DNA of 4,250 nucleotides from the IMG/VR virus record IMGVR_UViG_2529292977_000006; one strand, written 5' to 3'. This DNA comes from a virus. Taxonomy: Duplodnaviria > Heunggongvirae > Uroviricota > Caudoviricetes. Positions 1 to 4,250 of this stretch are shown in pieces (within the stretch, counting starts at the first letter, position 1; every line of letters starts with the position of its first letter). The notes beneath the pieces were generated by a model that made no database searches, had not been told where the DNA came from, and saw nothing but the letters and a program-made list of their open reading frames with translations. The position numbers and the translations under genes are program-made.

Positions 1-582
1 TTATCAGCAACGGAAACGGCCTGGAAGCTGTGGGAACTTATGGGGGAGGTGTATTCGAACCGCTGGACCCAGAAGAACGGGGCTGCGCCGTCGAAGCTCT
101 GGATTGCTCAGATTGGCGCGATGACTGAACAGCAAATCCGGCAGGTCTGCCGTCAGTGCATGGACCGCTGCCGGGCGGGTGAAACGTGGCCTCCGGACCT
201 GGCTGAGTTTGTGGCGTTGATTTCGGAGAGCGGGGCAAATCCATTTGGCCTGACGGTGGATGCCGTGATGGAGGAGTACCGTCGCTGGAGGAATGAATCC
301 TGGCGGTACGACGGGAGTGATAAATACCCGTGGCCACAGCCGGTGCTGTACCACATTTGCCTCGAGATGCGTGACAGAGGGATTGAGCGGCAGATGACGG
401 AAGGTGAGTTAAAACGACTTGCAGAACGGCAACTGACGAAATGGGCAAAGCAAGTTGGTAACGGGATGAGTATTCCCCCGATCCGGAGACAACTCGCATC
501 GCCGAAGTGCCCGCAAGGGCCAACGCCAATTGAATTACTGAAACAGGAATACGAGCGCCGGAAGGCGGCTGGTTTTGTTTGA
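1..582 (+). CDS. Replication protein P-like (lambda P family helicase loader), 5'-truncated by the window edge
   Basis: The reading frame is open from base 1 (LSATETAWKLWEL precedes the first ATG at 40) and ends at TGA 580-582. The translation resembles the central and C-terminal part of lambda P as I recall it: PPDLAEFVALISE vs PSPGQFVAWCRE, a conserved YPW, and IPPIRRQLASP vs IPEPVKQLPV near the C-terminus. Minus-strand ORFs overlapping it are judged spurious. Confidence 0.7.
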   Translation, partial: LSATETAWKLWELMGEVYSNRWTQKNGAAPSKLWIAQIGAMTEQQIRQVCRQCMDRCRAGETWPPDLAEFVALISESGANPFGLTVDAVMEEYRRWRNESWRYDGSDKYPWPQPVLYHICLEMRDRGIERQMTEGELKRLAERQLTKWAKQVGNGMSIPPIRRQLASPKCPQGPTPIELLKQEYERRKAAGFV

Positions 583-615
583 ATCTGAGAAACGATTTTG
601 TCGGAGGAAATTTTA

Positions 616-1332
616 ATGGAAACCGTATCTGACGCACTGAAAGCACTGAAAAGAGCCTCTTCACATGTGGTGGCAGCTCGCCTTGGAATTAGTCGTGAAG
701 AGGCTGTCAACGAACTGTGGAAACTGAAACGCCGTGGAGAAGCGGATAACAAGGGGGCGATATGGTGGCTGACTCAGGCTGGTGAAAGTGAACCGGTGTC
801 ACCGGTACCGAAAGTGACGGCGCAAATGCTGACAGAGGCGATTGAACAACATGGCCCACAAACGGCGGATGAACTGGCATTGATGTTCGGAATTACCTCC
901 CGCCGGGCGAATTCATCGCTGGCAATGGCAATCAGCAAAGGGTGTCTGATTCGCGTGAATCAGGATGGTAAATTTCGTTACTGCATACCGGGCGTTGATT
1001 TACCGGCAGAGCCGAAAGCAGCATCCGTAGCTGAAACGGAGGGTAAAGCCCTTCCTCAGCCAGCTGGTGTTGCGTTACCAGTCCAGGAAACGGCTGCACA
1101 GGAAGAAATTAAAACAGAAGCGGTGGAGGACATTGTGAAGTTGCAGCAATCGTTCACTGAAGCGAAAGCAGATGACCTGATTCTACCATCGCTGCATGTG
1201 GCTAACCGCGAGCTGCGCCGGGCGAAAAGTAATGTTCAGAAGTGGGAGCGAGTCTGTGCTGCGCTACGGGAACTGAACAAACACAGGGATATTCTCCGGG
1301 ATATTACCGCCACCAGAGAGCAGCAGCGGTGA
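616..1332 (+). CDS. Hypothetical protein with two tandem winged-helix-like modules, a Pro/Ala-rich linker and a C-terminal coiled-coil-like tail; occupies the position of ren
   Basis: ATG at 616 is preceded by GGAGG (603-607) at 8 nt; the TTG at 598 used by the ORF track has no SD. Stop TGA at 1330-1332. Two segments have a similar HTH-then-basic-wing pattern (residues ~10-50 and ~75-125), followed by [26 protein letters not shown] and a charged helical tail. It sits immediately downstream of P, as ren does in lambda. Confidence 0.6.
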
Positions 1333-1646
1333 GTGGCTGGAAGAAGTGGCGCTGGGCTGAAATCCTGATACTCCGGCAGTGTGCGGGAACGATGAGAGTC
1401 GAAAGCATCGGTTATCTGATTGGCCGTAGTGAGTCAGCCGTCAGGACGAAAGCGCGGGAACTGGGTATCAGCATGATGTTACGGGGTGATTATCACCAGT
1501 CAGCCAAATGTTCACAGCGTGATATTGAGCTGGCGTGGCAACTGCATCAGCGTGGTGTACCCCGACGGGAAATTGCCGAAAAGTTTGGGATGAAGTTGGG
1601 CGCAGTGAATAACTACGTTTATTTCGACAGGAGGGTTCAGGAGTGA
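1329..1646 (+). CDS. Small helix-turn-helix DNA-binding protein (hypothetical)
   Basis: ORF in frame 0 ending at TGA 1644-1646. GTG at 1329 overlaps the upstream stop (GTGA), a typical coupling arrangement; the alternative start is ATG 1392. The ATG at 1242 would overlap the upstream gene by 90 nt and is rejected. Two HTH-like segments: [21 protein letters not shown] and [21 protein letters not shown]. Confidence 0.5.
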
Positions 1647-1945
1647 GGGTGAGGGTTTATATCGCCGGTCCGATGACGGGATATGAAAATTTTAACCGCG
1701 AGGCATTTCACAAAACGGAAGAGGTGCTGAAACGGGAAGGGCATACCGTTTTAAACCCGGCAGTACTTCCGGACGGGCTGACTCAGCCACACTACATGGA
1801 TATTTGCATGGCAATGCTCCGTTGCGTGGATGCGGTTTACATGCTGAAAGGCTGGCAGCAGTCGGCAGGTGCAGGGGCTGAGCTGGCACTGGAGGAGAAA
1901 CCGGGCCATGCGGTGATTTTTCAGGAGGTGGGCAGTGAATATTGA
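1643..1945 (+). CDS. DUF4406-like protein (nucleoside 2-deoxyribosyltransferase-like fold)
   Basis: GTG at 1643 overlaps the upstream TGA (GTGA) and is preceded by AGGAGG (1629-1634) at 8 nt; stop TGA 1943-1945. The ~100-aa product starts VYIAGPMTGYENFNREAF, which matches my memory of the N-terminal YIAG-x-(I/M)TG motif of DUF4406 / deoxyribosyltransferase-like proteins. This is recall, not a search. Confidence 0.6.
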   Translation: MRVRVYIAGPMTGYENFNREAFHKTEEVLKREGHTVLNPAVLPDGLTQPHYMDICMAMLRCVDAVYMLKGWQQSAGAGAELALEEKPGHAVIFQEVGSEY

Positions 1946-2252
1946 CCCGGCGATAACGATTGATATGGCCCTGAACGCCGGCCTGGCACTTCTTGGTTAT
2001 TTCTACATTATGTTCTGCAGCGGACGATGGCTGTCACTGTTGTTCATGAAAAAATGGAATAAACGCCGTAAGCAGGAGCAACGCCAGAAGGCAATGGATG
2101 CATTTTTCGAAGCCTTCGGAATTGACGGCATGGAACCAGGGGATCCAGCTCGCGCAATCAGCAGAGGGGGTGTAGTAATCCTTGTATATCGGAGTGAAGA
2201 GAAAAATGACGATCACAAAACAACGTGTAGAAGAAATCATATCCCGCATTGA
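1935..2252 (+). CDS. Small membrane protein (hypothetical), one predicted TM helix followed by a basic stretch
   Basis: GTG at 1935 with AGGAGG (1923-1928) at 6 nt; it overlaps the upstream gene by 11 nt. Hydrophobic segment ALNAGLALLGYFYIMFCSGRWLSLLF followed by KKWNKRRKQEQRQK. Stop at 2250-2252. The 3' end overlaps the next gene by 47 nt, so the true C-terminus is uncertain. Confidence 0.45.
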   Translation: MNIDPAITIDMALNAGLALLGYFYIMFCSGRWLSLLFMKKWNKRRKQEQRQKAMDAFFEAFGIDGMEPGDPARAISRGGVVILVYRSEEKNDDHKTTCRRNHIPH

Positions 2253-2523
2253 AATGTATGGACATGGTGCAGGGTATATCGCAGACGAGGTTAATGATCT
2301 GGCTATACTGGCGCTGAATTTATCAAATATCGCGAACCTGAAGCGATACGAGCTTGATATGGGAGGTTGCGACTCGTGCGGTCAGGATTGTGGCGCTGAT
2401 ATGACTGAAGATCCTGATGGTGATTATGTCCTGTTTGATGACGTGGTTAAGTTGTTTGAATTTGATACAACCACTCAAAAGTTAGAAATCCCGGCAAAGG
2501 AGGCAGCCAGTGGGCAAGATTGA
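2206..2523 (+). CDS. Hypothetical acidic protein with a Cys-rich knuckle (GGCDSCGQDCG); N-terminus paralogous to the 3143..3700 product
   Basis: ATG 2206 is chosen over the TTG at 2182 because the resulting N-terminus MTITKQRVEEIISRIEMYGHGAG aligns with MTTITKDRLLTIQHWRETYGPGS of the gene at 3143. Stop TGA 2521-2523. Weak SD (GGAG at 2191-2194). Confidence 0.55.
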   Translation: MTITKQRVEEIISRIEMYGHGAGYIADEVNDLAILALNLSNIANLKRYELDMGGCDSCGQDCGADMTEDPDGDYVLFDDVVKLFEFDTTTQKLEIPAKEAASGQD

Positions 2524-2947
2524 CTATCAGGCACTGCGTGAGGCAGCACAAAACTATCAATCGACGCTGGCGTGGTATCAGGCTACCCCGGACAGCCCAA
2601 ATGCTGAACGGGATTGTGATGCGGCTCTTGCTGCGTTTAAGCGTCACATCCGTCATCGGGAAGCGGATATTATCGCTGATTTGCTGGATGGACTGGAAGA
2701 AGCAAAATCACAACTCAACGAGCAGCGTGAGTATTACGAAGGCGTTATCTCTGATGGGAGCAAGCGTATTGCTGAACTGGAAGCGCGGGAAGTTCAATTA
2801 CCGACTCGCTACGACCTTCGATATGGACACCCGATAAATGCAGATGAGCGACATGTCATGATACCTAAAGAAAATGGCAGTTGGCTTTACCTGATTGACC
2901 TAGAACACGCATTACGCGTCGCTGGCATTCGCATCAAAGGAGAGTGA
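2510..2947 (+). CDS. Ead/Ea22-like family protein (coiled-coil phage early protein)
   Basis: GTG at 2510 with AAGGAGG (2497-2503) at 6 nt, overlapping the upstream gene by 14 nt; stop TGA 2945-2947. N-terminal DYQALREAAQ, central EEAKSQLNEQREYYEGVISDGSKRIAELEAREV and C-terminal AGIRIKGE match what I recall of lambda Ea22 / P22 Ead-like proteins. From memory only. Confidence 0.6.
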   Translation: MGKIDYQALREAAQNYQSTLAWYQATPDSPNAERDCDAALAAFKRHIRHREADIIADLLDGLEEAKSQLNEQREYYEGVISDGSKRIAELEAREVQLPTRYDLRYGHPINADERHVMIPKENGSWLYLIDLEHALRVAGIRIKGE

Positions 2948-2948
2948 G

Positions 2949-3140
2949 ATGAACGGACAAATATCAATTGTTCGACCAGGAGCATGTGACGATCGCGAAA
3001 TACGAATGATTATTCGTCTGGCGATGGGGAAAACAATAACTGCTCTCATTACTCCAGAAAATCTCGCATTAGCATTAACAGGAAAGTCAGACATGCCAGT
3101 AGAGCTAAAGCTGCGAAATGTTGAGATTAAGGTGAAATAG
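2949..3140 (+). CDS. Hypothetical small protein (63 aa)
   Basis: ATG 2949 lies 1 nt after the upstream stop, with AAAGGAGAG (2937-2945) upstream; stop TAG 3138-3140. No recognisable motif; it is called on operon context and the ribosome-binding site. Confidence 0.5.
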   Translation: MNGQISIVRPGACDDREIRMIIRLAMGKTITALITPENLALALTGKSDMPVELKLRNVEIKVK

Positions 3141-3142
3141 CT

Positions 3143-3700
3143 ATGACCACTATTACCAAAGATCGACTGCTGACAATCCAGCATTGGCGCGAAACATACG
3201 GACCGGGTAGCAACGTTGTGCTTCCAGCAGAAGAAGCGGAAGAGCTGGCACGGATTGCGCTGGCATCACTGGCAGCAGTATCGGATGAACGAGCAGCCTA
3301 TGAATTATTTATGGAGAAGCGTTTCGGAGAATCTGTAGATCGCCGCAGAGCAAAAAATGGCGATAGAGATTACATGGTATGGGATATGGCGCTTGGCTGG
3401 ATTATCTGGTGTCACCGCGCCGCCATGCTTCAGGCTGGAAACTTTCGGGAAAATAAGGGTTCGTCAACCAATAATTTTCGGATAATCTCGGAAACGTCAA
3501 CCAACTCTCCGGCAATCCCTGATGAGGTGTTGTCCGCAATCCTGAAGGTCGCCAGGCTTCGTGCAGATTTCGATGCTTCTGAAGTGGACAGGCGAGGTAT
3601 CGGTAGTTGTCTGGATGAGGCCGAGCAAGAACTTATCGTTACCATTAACGAATACGCCAGTCAGATCGCAGTAGAAGCGACACAGGGGGAGAACCAATGA
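3143..3700 (+). CDS. Hypothetical protein (185 aa); N-terminus paralogous to the 2206..2523 product
   Basis: ATG 3143 lies 2 nt after the upstream stop, with AAGGTGA (3129-3135) upstream; stop TGA 3698-3700. Shares the N-terminal pattern MT(T)ITK-x-R...YG-x-G...AL with the gene at 2206. Confidence 0.6.
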   Translation: MTTITKDRLLTIQHWRETYGPGSNVVLPAEEAEELARIALASLAAVSDERAAYELFMEKRFGESVDRRRAKNGDRDYMVWDMALGWIIWCHRAAMLQAGNFRENKGSSTNNFRIISETSTNSPAIPDEVLSAILKVARLRADFDASEVDRRGIGSCLDEAEQELIVTINEYASQIAVEATQGENQ

Positions 3701-3774
3701 GCCGGCCAGATGCATTTGCAGGCGTTGCTATAGCTATTGCTTTTCTAGTATATGTTATTTGTCGGTGGGGGTAA
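3697..3774 (+). CDS. Candidate 25-aa hydrophobic micropeptide (MSRPDAFAGVAIAIAFLVYVICRWG)
   Basis: ATG 3697 overlaps the upstream stop (ATGA), with GGGGGA (3685-3690) at 6 nt; stop TAA 3772-3774. One short hydrophobic helix. Too short for the ORF track; the call rests only on coupling geometry, the SD and hydrophobicity. Confidence 0.3.
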   Translation: MSRPDAFAGVAIAIAFLVYVICRWG

Positions 3775-3809
3775 AAACGTTCGCCGGGATTCACACCAAG
3801 GGAGGGAAT

Positions 3810-3914
3810 ATGTCGGATGATATTTCACTGGTAATGGAAGGCGCTCTGGCTGTTATTGCTGTTGTGGGTGTTTACTGCCTGGTTGTGTTTTTGATGGAGC
3901 GCCTGGGGAACTGA
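3810..3914 (+). CDS. Candidate 34-aa small membrane peptide (MSDDISLVMEGALAVIAVVGVYCLVVFLMERLGN)
   Basis: ATG 3810 is preceded by a strong SD, AAGGGAGGG (3798-3806); stop TGA 3912-3914. One TM-like helix flanked by acidic N-terminal and charged C-terminal residues. Not in the ORF track because of its length. Confidence 0.45.
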   Translation: MSDDISLVMEGALAVIAVVGVYCLVVFLMERLGN

Positions 3915-3924
3915 ATTCATTCCG

Positions 3925-3940
3925 TATGGGAATTCCCATA
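3925..3940. promoter_or_regulatory. 16-bp perfect palindrome TATGGGAATTCCCATA (candidate operator or weak hairpin)
   Basis: The sequence equals its own reverse complement. It lies 11 nt after the stop of the 34-aa ORF and about 15 nt upstream of the candidate hok promoter -35. There is no following T-tract, so a classical intrinsic terminator is unlikely. Confidence 0.3.
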
Positions 3941-3954
3941 TCGGGCAAAACGGT

Positions 3955-3982
3955 TTGCTGTAAAGCGAGAGTTAAGTAGAAT
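3955..3982 (+). promoter_or_regulatory. Candidate sigma70 promoter for the hok transcript
   Basis: -35 TTGCTG (3955-3960), 16-bp spacer, -10 TAGAAT (3977-3982). This would give a leader of about 170 nt before the hok ATG, in line with the long structured leaders of hok mRNAs. Confidence 0.3.
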
Positions 3983-4000
3983 TGCTGCGGGTGCTTGAGG

Positions 4001-4036
4001 CTGTCTGCCTCGGGCATGCCACCGTAAGGCAGACAG
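4001..4036 (+). other. Stable hairpin in the presumed hok mRNA leader (10-bp perfect stem, 16-nt loop)
   Basis: CTGTCTGCCT (4001-4010) is the exact reverse complement of AGGCAGACAG (4027-4036). It is not followed by a U-tract. Confidence 0.35.
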
Positions 4037-4157
4037 AGAAAAGCCCCAGTTAACATTACGCGTCCTGCAAGACGCTTAACATTAATCTGAGGCCCAATCT
4101 ATGCTTCACAAACGTAGGTTAGCCTCTTACGCGCCGAAAGGCAAGGAGAAGCAGGTT

Positions 4158-4250
4158 ATGAAGCAGCAAAAGGCGATGTTAATCGCCCTGATCGTCATCT
4201 GTTTAACCGTCATAGTGACGGCACTGGTAACGAGGAAAGACCTCTGCGAG
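4158..4250 (+). CDS. hok: Hok-family type I toxin (HokD/RelF-like), 3'-truncated by the window edge
   Basis: ATG 4158 is preceded by AAGGAGAAG (4142-4150). The translation MKQQKAMLIALIVICLTVIVTALVTRKDLCE matches the N-terminus of E. coli HokD/RelF as I remember it, including the TM helix and the conserved Cys. An in-frame ATG at 4101 with its own SD lies upstream. Confidence 0.75.
   Translation, partial: MKQQKAMLIALIVICLTVIVTALVTRKDLCE

What the first reader, a model, noticed from the sequence alone, without database searches (positions are those of the whole stretch)
4101..4160. Candidate antisense (sok-like) promoter on the minus strand and an in-frame upstream start in the hok leader
On the minus strand, TTGCCT (complement of 4139-4144) and TAACCT (complement of 4116-4121) are separated by 17 bp. 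This would start a transcript near 4108 running leftwards across the upstream ATG at 4101 and its SD (GAGG 4088-4091). That is the geometry expected for a Sok-type antisense RNA targeting the translation-initiation region of a leader ORF coupled to hok. Unusually, the upstream ATG at 4101 is in the same frame as hok, so it may give an N-extended Hok or a functional mok analogue, unlike the out-of-frame mok of plasmid R1.
Basis: inference. Interest (0 to 1): 0.5.

Follow-up and report, generated by a model that had tools for sequence, protein, structure and literature searches.

The report
Sok antitoxin promoter of prophage hokD
The flagged hexamers are the promoter of the Sok antisense antitoxin RNA of an intact hok/mok/sok toxin-antitoxin locus in an E. 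coli O157-type lambdoid prophage, and the "unusual" in-frame upstream start is the ordinary mok leader of this branch of the family, so the finding is correct but already known.

Summary
TTGCCT (rc 4139-4144), 17 bp, TAACCT (rc 4116-4121) and an ATG at 4101 in frame with hok (4158) are all present. The hexamers alone are at chance level: 12 sites of that quality in the window against 12.4 in shuffles.

Homology carries the case. The hexamers align base for base with the Sok promoters of R1/R100, K-12 sokC and Sp5 sokW. In sokW the same TAACCT was mutated and antitoxin activity was lost. Across 37 distinct leaders from several enterobacterial genera, TTG in the -35 is kept in 36 of 37. A2/C5/T6 of the -10 and a G seven bases downstream are invariant, and the spacer is 17-18 bp.

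The predicted Sok runs 4109 to about 4033 on the minus strand. It has a 14-nt 5' tail covering the mok AUG, a long hairpin and a U-rich tail.

The in-frame start is not unusual. K-12 mokC has the same 19-codon in-frame extension. In-frame spacing (57 nt) is the majority state in the HokC/HokD clade, with 56- and 58-nt variants alongside.

Verdict: a standard member of a well-studied system, of low novelty.

The parts
3954..3982 (+). Probable weak hok promoter: TTTGCT (3954-3959), 17 bp, TAGAAT (3977-3982), then 6 bp to the mRNA 5' end at about 3989
   Evidence: Inference from the sequence. The -10 aligns with TATAAT of K-12 hokC and lies just upstream of the Rfam model start. The promoter scan did not list it. 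The literature describes hok promoters as weak (PMC1635323).
3989..4163 (+). hok mRNA 5' leader, running from the tac element (GGGUGCUUGAGG, 3989-4000) to the hok AUG. It matches Rfam RF01794 'sok', which in fact models the hok-sense strand.
   Evidence: cmscan 114.9 bits against a gathering score of 59, E 1.4e-26, full length 1-157. In K-12 the same model hits the hokC strand, opposite to the annotated sokC.
4033..4109 (-). Predicted Sok antitoxin RNA (about 75-77 nt): a 14-nt single-stranded 5' tail (GUGAAGCAUAGAUU) complementary to the mok AUG region, a long hairpin (4042-4095) and a GGGGCUUUUCUCU tail
   Evidence: The ends map from annotated K-12 sokC (16952..17010) through alignment A1. 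The 5' end also aligns with the R1 Sok 5' end GACUAGACAU (PMC1635323). Fold -33.7 kcal/mol, z -4.3. The basal stem is conserved, with 3 compensatory pairs in 21 homologues.
4089..4092 (+). mok Shine-Dalgarno GAGG. GAGGC 4089-4093 can pair with the downstream GCCUC 4123-4127 (dcb-like).
   Evidence: Sequence. Same GAGG motif as the R1 mok SD (PMC9841398). Rfam consensus structure.
4101..4250 (+). mok-type leader ORF, in frame with hok. It has 19 leader codons (4101-4157) and then reads through hok, giving 70 aa in full. It is cut by the window end; the stop lies at window-equivalent 4311-4313.
   Evidence: Translation. K-12 mokC has the identical geometry. Pfam HOK_GEF matches residues 25-66 of the 70-aa product, 81.6 bits.
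4116..4121 (-). Sok promoter -10 hexamer TAACCT
   Evidence: Aligned with R1/R100 TATCCT and K-12 sokC CACTCT. A2, C5 and T6 are invariant in 37 of 37 distinct leaders. The same TAACCT was mutated to GAGCCG in sokW, with loss of antitoxin function (PMC8621323, primers YO-421/422).
4139..4144 (-). Sok promoter -35 hexamer TTGCCT, directly abutting the hok SD on the other strand
   Evidence: TTG is kept in 36 of 37 distinct leaders, with a spacer of 17 bp (29) or 18 bp (8). The sokW probe YO-597 carries TTGCCT-17-TAACC and differs from the window by one spacer base.
4143..4148 (+). hok Shine-Dalgarno AAGGAG
   Evidence: Sequence. Conserved in all aligned leaders.
4158..4250 (+). hokD toxin gene (51 aa in full; the window ends inside it)
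   Evidence: PGAP annotation 'type I toxin-antitoxin system toxin HokD' in a record 100% identical over window 3900-4250. Pfam HOK_GEF.

Best explanation
Window 3954-4250, continuing about 170 nt beyond the window, is an intact hokD-type hok/mok/sok type I toxin-antitoxin locus. It sits in the region between the replication genes and Q of a lambdoid prophage of O157-type E. coli. The flagged hexamers are the promoter of its cis-antisense antitoxin RNA, Sok. Transcription most likely starts at the G complementary to 4109 and ends after the hairpin and U-run near 4033-4036. The single-stranded 5' tail of Sok is perfectly complementary to 4096-4109, which contains the mok AUG (4101). The rest of Sok covers the mok SD (4089-4092). 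By analogy with R1, Sok pairs with the 3'-processed, refolded hok mRNA. It blocks ribosome loading at mok, and the duplex is degraded, with RNase III contributing. Because hok translation depends on ribosomes reading from mok into the hok start region, HokD is not made while the unstable Sok is being replenished. The ATG at 4101 is the mok start. In this clade mok is in frame with hok, so its product is a 70-aa N-extended HokD. Shown here: sequence anatomy, homology, conservation and predicted folds. Inferred: that this copy is transcribed, the exact RNA ends, coupling, and whether the 70-aa product accumulates.
For: (1) The locus is a Hok family member. The Rfam hok-leader model scores 114.9 bits, Pfam HOK_GEF scores 81.6 bits, and PGAP annotates hokD. 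(2) The promoter aligns position by position with characterised Sok promoters: R1/R100 TTGCGC-17-TATCCT, then 6 nt, then G(+1)ACUAGACAU, and K-12 sokC TTGACC-17-CACTCT. The annotated sokC 5' end maps to window 4109 and its 3' end to 4033. (3) In 37 distinct leaders from Escherichia, Shigella, Kluyvera, Citrobacter, Pseudocitrobacter and Photorhabdus plus plasmids, TTG of the -35 is kept in 36 of 37. A2/C5/T6 of the -10 and G at +1 are kept in 37 of 37, and the spacer is always 17-18 bp. These bases stay fixed although the mok frame differs (56, 57 or 58 nt) and the base opposite A4116 in the mRNA stem varies. Neither coding nor pairing therefore explains the invariance (inference). (4) 77 of 80 phage loci with identical HokD keep the same promoter. 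(5) Experiments on close homologues. The sokW promoter is 29/30 identical to this one over the 30-nt probe YO-597. Mutating its TAACCT abolished protection, which was partly restored in trans, and sokW RNA was detected by Northern with a probe equivalent to window 4080-4109 (PMC8621323). mokC/sokC form dsRNA in vivo (PMC7373196). (6) The predicted Sok folds as a 5' tail, hairpin and U-tail, z -4.3, with compensatory changes in the stem. (7) The full-length mRNA of the 100%-identical locus folds with its 5' tac paired to a 3' fbi-like segment, z -7.2. (8) In-frame mok matches the K-12 mokC annotation and is the majority state.
Against: There are no transcript data for this particular copy. The hexamers are weak matches to consensus (7/12) and occur at chance frequency. 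The same nucleotides also carry the hok SD, the dcb stem and mok codons, so part of the conservation has other causes. Chromosomal hok loci tested in earlier work did not mediate post-segregational killing (bioRxiv 10.1101/2025.08.07.668861), so activity of any single copy cannot be assumed. The nearest full-length match to the window is 99% identical over 96% of it. The part of the locus beyond 4250 was read from a record identical only over 3900-4250.
Confidence: 0.9

Rival explanations
1. The hexamer pair is a chance match, and this copy makes no antisense RNA. The locus would be silent or decaying, as reported for several chromosomal hok loci.
For: Motif quality is at chance level and was not picked up by the promoter scan. 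Some relatives have clearly lost the region: the K-12-type hokD behind relE (L006, L027, L043) and 3 of 80 phage loci. L005 has a 1-nt insertion that breaks the TTG.
Against: Every element is intact here. The promoter is 29/30 identical to the functional sokW promoter over probe YO-597. The key promoter bases and the +1 G are invariant across genera. The hairpin and U-tail are preserved.
Confidence: 0.04
2. Conservation of 4116-4144 reflects only sense-strand functions: the hok SD, the dcb stem pairing with the mok SD, and mok codons. The antitoxin RNA would then be made from somewhere else.
For: The -35 abuts the hok SD, and the -10 lies next to GCCUC, which pairs with GAGGC.
Against: The invariant bases (A2, T6, TTG) stay fixed while the mok frame shifts among 56, 57 and 58 nt and while the mRNA pairing partner of A4116 varies among T, C and A. 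The spacer is held at 17-18 bp, in hokC-type loci by a compensating insertion and deletion. Mutating these bases in sokW removed antitoxin activity, which sokW in trans partly restored. The annotated sokC and the R1 Sok start exactly 7 nt downstream of the aligned -10.
Confidence: 0.03
3. The ATG at 4101 is mainly the start of a second, N-extended toxin isoform (70 aa) with a role of its own, not just a coupling leader. This is not exclusive of the main explanation.
For: The frame is open into hok, and the in-frame state dominates in the HokC/HokD clade. The extension is basic and partly conserved (RLASY.PKGKE).
Against: Close relatives, some with identical HokD, use 56-nt or 58-nt spacing, where the leader ORF ends at the hok start or reads a different frame. 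This argues that translation matters rather than the product, as shown for R1 (PMC9841398). Conservation of the extension is confounded by the Sok promoter on the same bases. The text of the HokW-3FLAG Western work read here (results 2.1 and 2.4, discussion, legends) mentions no second species.
Confidence: 0.1

Closest known systems
hokW-sokW of Sakai prophage 5 (Sp5), E. coli O157:H7 (Takada et al. 2021, PMC8621323)
   Same: A lambdoid-prophage hok/sok locus. Same Sok promoter, TTGCCT-17-TAACCT, 29/30 identical over the 30-nt probe YO-597. Same extended Sok hairpin and the same 57-nt in-frame mok (leader sequences L007/L022 contain the paper's primers). In that locus the -10 was mutated and the RNA was detected.
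   Different: Different prophage copy. The Sok 5' tail and mok codons 2-5 differ (GUGAAGCAUAGAUU here, GUUCAGCAUGGAUU there). The toxin C-terminus differs (HokD ...FTAYEPEE here, HokW ...FVDYESEK there). This copy has not been tested.
hokC(gef)/mokC/sokC of E. coli K-12
   Same: mokC is annotated in frame with hokC and starts 57 nt upstream. The sokC 5' end lies 6 nt before the complement of the mok ATG, as predicted here. Same Rfam leader, 118 bits.
   Different: sokC is 59 nt and lacks the 18-nt apical insertion in the hairpin. Its -35 is TTGACC and its -10 is CACTCT. It is a chromosomal, non-prophage locus next to IS186.
hok/mok/sok (parB) of plasmid R1/R100
   Same: The same order of elements: tac, ucb, mok SD, mok ATG, Sok +1, Sok -10, dcb, Sok -35, hok SD, hok and fbi. 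Sok has a 5' tail plus a hairpin, and its promoter has a 17-bp spacer.
   Different: In R1 mok starts 58 nt upstream of hok and is out of frame, giving an unrelated 70-aa Mok. Sok is 64 nt. Hok shares only about 44% identity with the closely related HokW, per PMC8621323. It has a plasmid maintenance role.
hokD (relF) of the K-12 Qin prophage
   Same: Identical 51-aa HokD protein (L006).
   Different: The K-12 copy matches the window only from the hok SD onwards (H28/H29) and has relE sequence upstream. It therefore lacks mok, sok and the leader. The window holds the complete version of the locus.

Membership tests
[quoted passage not shown] | Small Hok/Gef membrane toxin ORF of about 50 aa | tested here: met
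   Pfam PF01848 HOK_GEF at 81.6 bits, cutoff 22. The product is 51 aa and identical to HokD. The window itself holds only the first 31 codons.
[quoted passage not shown] | Structured hok mRNA 5' leader homologous to known hok leaders | tested here: met
   RF01794 at 114.9 bits against a gathering score of 59, full-length match at 3989-4163 on the + strand.
[quoted passage not shown] | Leader ORF (mok) with its own SD, open at least up to the hok start | tested here: met
   GAGG at 4089-4092 and ATG at 4101, open through 4158. In all 36 distinct homologous leaders that have an ATG, the ORF reaches the hok start in whichever frame it lies.
[quoted passage not shown] | Antisense promoter inside mok whose transcript overlaps the mok translation-initiation region | tested here: met
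   Met at the level of sequence homology and conservation. Activity of this copy was not measured.
[quoted passage not shown] | Sok RNA architecture: single-stranded 5' tail, stable stem-loop, U-rich 3' end | tested here: met
   Predicted fold with z -4.3. Conserved stem with compensatory pairs and a GGGGCUUUUCUC tail. The hairpin is 18 nt longer than in sokC.
[quoted passage not shown] | 5'-3' fold-back (tac/fbi) in the full-length mRNA | tested here: met
   The minimum-energy fold of L001:4590-5012 pairs GGGUGCUUGAGG with a 3' CCUCAACGCACCC segment, z -7.2. This lies outside the window and is prediction only.
[quoted passage not shown] | Sok RNA is actually expressed and represses hok; hok translation is coupled to mok | not testable with these tools
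   Demonstrated only for homologues: sokW, R1 and mokC/sokC dsRNA.

The most novel reading that the evidence does not exclude
In the in-frame loci, including this one, ribosomes starting at mok make a 70-aa HokD with a basic 19-residue N-terminal extension. That product would itself be a membrane-active isoform, so Sok would control toxin synthesis directly and not only through translational coupling. Single-base indels inside the Sok promoter spacer and Sok 5' tail would toggle loci between the in-frame (57 nt) and coupled (56 or 58 nt) modes.
Probability: 0.12. Interest if true: 0.4.

Novelty: already known. Interest (0 to 1): 0.12.

Why it matters
It matters little as a discovery. The work shows that a reader can recover a real antisense antitoxin promoter from weak hexamers only because the surrounding locus is recognisable. 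It also corrects the idea that an in-frame mok is exceptional. For annotation it matters somewhat. RefSeq records of these prophages list only hokD and omit both the Sok RNA and mok. The Rfam 'sok' model hits the hok-sense strand, so an automatic ncRNA call from it would be placed on the wrong strand. O157 strains carry many such copies (14 Hok genes in Sakai, PMC2887945). One homologue influences Stx-phage release (PMC8621323), so correct maps of each copy's Sok are useful.

Tried and rejected
(1) The sigma-70 consensus scan did not list the minus-strand promoter, and a shuffle test showed the hexamer quality is at chance level. I therefore dropped motif strength as evidence. (2) I first took the Rfam 'sok' hit as support for an antisense RNA. 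I rejected this because the model matches the hok-sense strand here, in K-12 and in plasmids. (3) I tried to fetch plasmid R1 itself (KY749247), but it is not in the collection. (4) I assumed L001 was the source of the whole window. It is not: it is identical only over 3900-4250, and the best full-length match is 99% over 96% (SS52). (5) L059, fetched as 'Sp5 hokW', turned out to be another recombinant copy, so I used the paper's primers and L007/L022 instead. (6) Supplementary sequences of the R1 Sok-promoter mutants are not held. (7) Literature searches for orf69/gef and for TSS maps of O157 Sok RNAs found nothing usable. (8) I considered protein-level selection on the Mok extension but did not pursue it, because the same bases carry the Sok promoter and RNA stems.

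Full report
**What is in the sequence**

On the minus strand, TTGCCT is the complement of 4139-4144 and TAACCT is the complement of 4116-4121, separated by 17 bp. On the plus strand there is an ATG at 4101 and the hok ATG at 4158. They are 57 nt apart, in the same frame, with no stop between them.

The hexamers match the sigma-70 consensus at only 4/6 and 3/6. The promoter scan did not list them. Sites of equal quality occur 12 times in the window, against 12.4 +/- 3.4 in shuffles. As a motif, then, the pair is not above chance, and any claim of function has to rest on context.

**Context**

Window 3900-4250 is 100% identical to lambdoid prophages of E. coli O157:H7, where the ORF starting at 4158 is annotated hokD. 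The whole window matches an O157:H7 SS52 prophage at 99% over 96% of its length. There it lies downstream of the DnaT-like and replication-protein-P genes and of several small DUF genes. Downstream come DUF968, and in the 100%-identical record also RusA and Q.

Rfam RF01794 ('sok') matches 3989-4163 at 114.9 bits against a gathering score of 59. That match is on the plus strand. In K-12 the same model hits the hokC strand, opposite to the annotated sokC. The model therefore describes the hok mRNA leader and is not in itself evidence for an antisense RNA.

Pfam HOK_GEF matches the toxin at 81.6 bits.

**The promoter, by homology**

- *K-12 sokC.* I aligned the window with K-12 hokC and transferred the RefSeq coordinates of sokC (16952..17010). 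This puts the Sok 5' end at window 4109 and the 3' end at 4033.
- *R1/R100.* The minus strand reads TTGCGC, 17 bp, TATCCT, GATGTG, then GACTAGACAT. The R1 Sok used for in vitro work begins GACUAGACAU, and Sok is 64 nt (PMC1635323). The R100 segment between the two published Sok primers is exactly 64 nt.
- *This window.* The minus strand reads TTGCCT, 17 bp, TAACCT, ACGTTT, then G (4109).

**Conservation**

I collected 53 loci from a one-genome-per-species collection using the HokD protein as bait, so selection was independent of the promoter. With K-12 hokC and two plasmid loci added, these gave 38 distinct leaders, of which 37 could be scored:

- -35: TTG in 36 of 37.
- -10: A2, C5 and T6 in 37 of 37.
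- Spacer: 17 bp in 29 and 18 bp in 8.
- Seventh base after the -10: G in 37 of 37.

The sources are Escherichia, Shigella, Kluyvera, Citrobacter, Pseudocitrobacter, Photorhabdus and IncF plasmids.

These bases stay fixed although the mok reading frame across them differs between loci. They also stay fixed although the base that pairs with A4116 in the mRNA stem varies among T, C and A. Coding and pairing therefore do not account for the invariance; this step is inference.

In hokC-type loci, an extra base in the -35 (TTGACC) is offset by a deleted base next to the -10, which keeps the spacer at 17 bp.

Among 80 IMG/VR phage loci encoding an identical HokD there are 25 distinct leaders, and 77 loci keep the promoter. 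One of them (L126) has a 72-nt leader identical to the window's.

**Experimental support from homologues**

For hokW-sokW of Sakai prophage 5, the authors mutated the sokW -10. Their primers show TAACCT changed to GAGCCG. Protection against HokW was lost and was partly restored by sokW supplied in trans (PMC8621323).

Their hokW mRNA probe YO-597 (CCTTGCCTTTCGGCACGTAAGAGGCTAACC) spans the promoter and differs from the window by one spacer base. Their sokW probe YO-592 corresponds to window 4080-4109 and detected a labile RNA.

In K-12, mokC/sokC form RNase III-processed dsRNA in vivo (PMC7373196).

**The RNA**

The minus-strand segment 4109-4025 folds at -33.7 kcal/mol, z -4.3. It has about 14 unpaired 5' nucleotides (GUGAAGCAUAGAUU), a long hairpin and a GGGGCUUUUCUCU tail.

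The 5' tail is the complement of 4096-4109 and therefore covers the mok AUG. The hairpin's 5' arm covers the mok SD.

In an alignment of 21 homologous Sok sequences the basal stem is conserved. Three of its pairs keep pairing through changes on both sides.

Compared with sokC (59 nt) and R1 Sok (64 nt), this Sok and the sokW type carry an 18-nt insertion that forms an extra GC-rich apical stem.

The full-length mRNA of the 100%-identical locus (L001:4590-5012) folds at z -7.2. Its 5' GGGUGCUUGAGG pairs with a 3' CCUCAACGCACCC segment, which is the tac/fbi fold-back described for R1 (PMC9841398). All the architectural elements of the family are therefore present.

**The in-frame start**

In R1 numbering the mok ATG is at 116-118 and the hok ATG at 174-176, 58 nt apart (PMC9841398). 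R100 gives 58 nt as well.

The in-frame state, however, is not unusual:

- K-12 mokC (16751..16960) and hokC (16751..16903) share a stop codon, and mokC starts 57 nt upstream, exactly as here. K-12 mokB/hokB are 58 nt apart and out of frame.
- Among the 36 distinct leaders with an ATG, 25 have 57 nt, 9 have 58 nt and 2 have 56 nt.
- Among the 77 phage loci that keep the promoter, 66 have 57 nt and 11 have 56 nt.
- An IncFII plasmid whose Hok is identical to the R1-type Hok of R100 has 57 nt.
- In the two genome-derived 56-nt leaders the leader ORF stops at ...AATGA, overlapping the hok ATG.

In every case the leader ORF stays open up to the hok start, while its frame is free to vary. This fits the R1 finding that translation of mok up to the hok initiation region matters, and not the Mok product.

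Whether the 70-aa in-frame product accumulates or is toxic is not settled by anything I found. The parts of the HokW-3FLAG paper I read describe no second species.

**Mechanism**

Part of the account is shown by the analysis and part is inferred by homology.

- *Shown by sequence analysis and prediction:* the anatomy, the homology, the conservation and the predicted folds.
- *Inferred from R1, sokC and sokW:*
  - The promoter fires at 4109.
  - Sok binds the processed hok mRNA through its 5' tail.
  - Binding blocks mok initiation and so blocks HokD synthesis.
  - The duplex is degraded, with RNase III contributing.
  - Loss of the short-lived Sok, as seen for sokW on prophage induction, releases toxin synthesis.

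**Verdict**

This is a correct identification of a known element in a known system. The claimed peculiarity is the normal state for this clade. Novelty: already known. Interest: low.

Noticed in passing
window 4104-4115 (plus strand), compared with L003-L140: The stretch between the mok ATG and the Sok -10 is by far the most variable part of the leader. It encodes the Sok 5' recognition tail and discriminator. Loci with identical HokD differ here, and so do copies within one genome: E. coli ECMA0423 (L004, L005, L012) and Photorhabdus temperata (L036-L038). This would fit diversification of Sok specificity to limit cross-talk between co-resident copies.
   Followed up: partly
window 4122-4144, and homologues: In the genome set, 7 of the 9 leaders with 58-nt mok-hok spacing have an 18-bp Sok promoter spacer. 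The same single-base indel changes both the promoter spacing and the mok frame. hokC-type loci carry a compensating insertion and deletion that restores both 17 bp and 57 nt.
   Followed up: partly
window 3989-4163 (+); L002 602-754 (-): Rfam RF01794, named 'sok antitoxin', matches the hok-sense strand, opposite to the annotated sokC in K-12. Automatic ncRNA calls from this model would be on the wrong strand and about twice the length of Sok.
   Followed up: yes
window 4076-4105 (+): There is a plus-strand promoter-like site, TTAACA-18-TATGCT (9/12), the better of only two sites the scan reported in 3700-4250. It overlaps the Sok hairpin and the mok ATG. A similar TTACCA-18-TATGCT is present in K-12 hokC. 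It may be a by-product of the conserved (T)ATGC at the mok start.
   Followed up: no
window 3810-3914 (+): A 34-aa hydrophobic ORF (MSDDISLVMEGALAVIAVVGVYCLVVFLMERLGN) lies just upstream of the hok promoter. It is annotated as a hypothetical protein in related prophages and has no Pfam match.
   Followed up: partly
L001 4923-5004 (+), beyond the window end: The 3' end of the hok mRNA (fbi region plus terminator) gives a weak Rfam hit to isrK, a Salmonella prophage Hfq-binding sRNA. The score is 27.2 bits, below the gathering score of 50.
   Followed up: no
window 4144-4250, compared with K-12-type genomes (H28/H29; L006, L027, L043): K-12 hokD (relF) matches the window only from the hok SD onward and has relE sequence upstream. 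K-12 therefore keeps only the toxin ORF of a locus that is complete in this prophage.
   Followed up: partly
window 1-3100, compared with L001 and L060: The region upstream of about 3100 differs between records that are identical over the hok locus (PV15-279 against SS52-type prophages). This shows the usual mosaicism of lambdoid prophages, with the hok/sok module acting as a shared cassette.
   Followed up: partly
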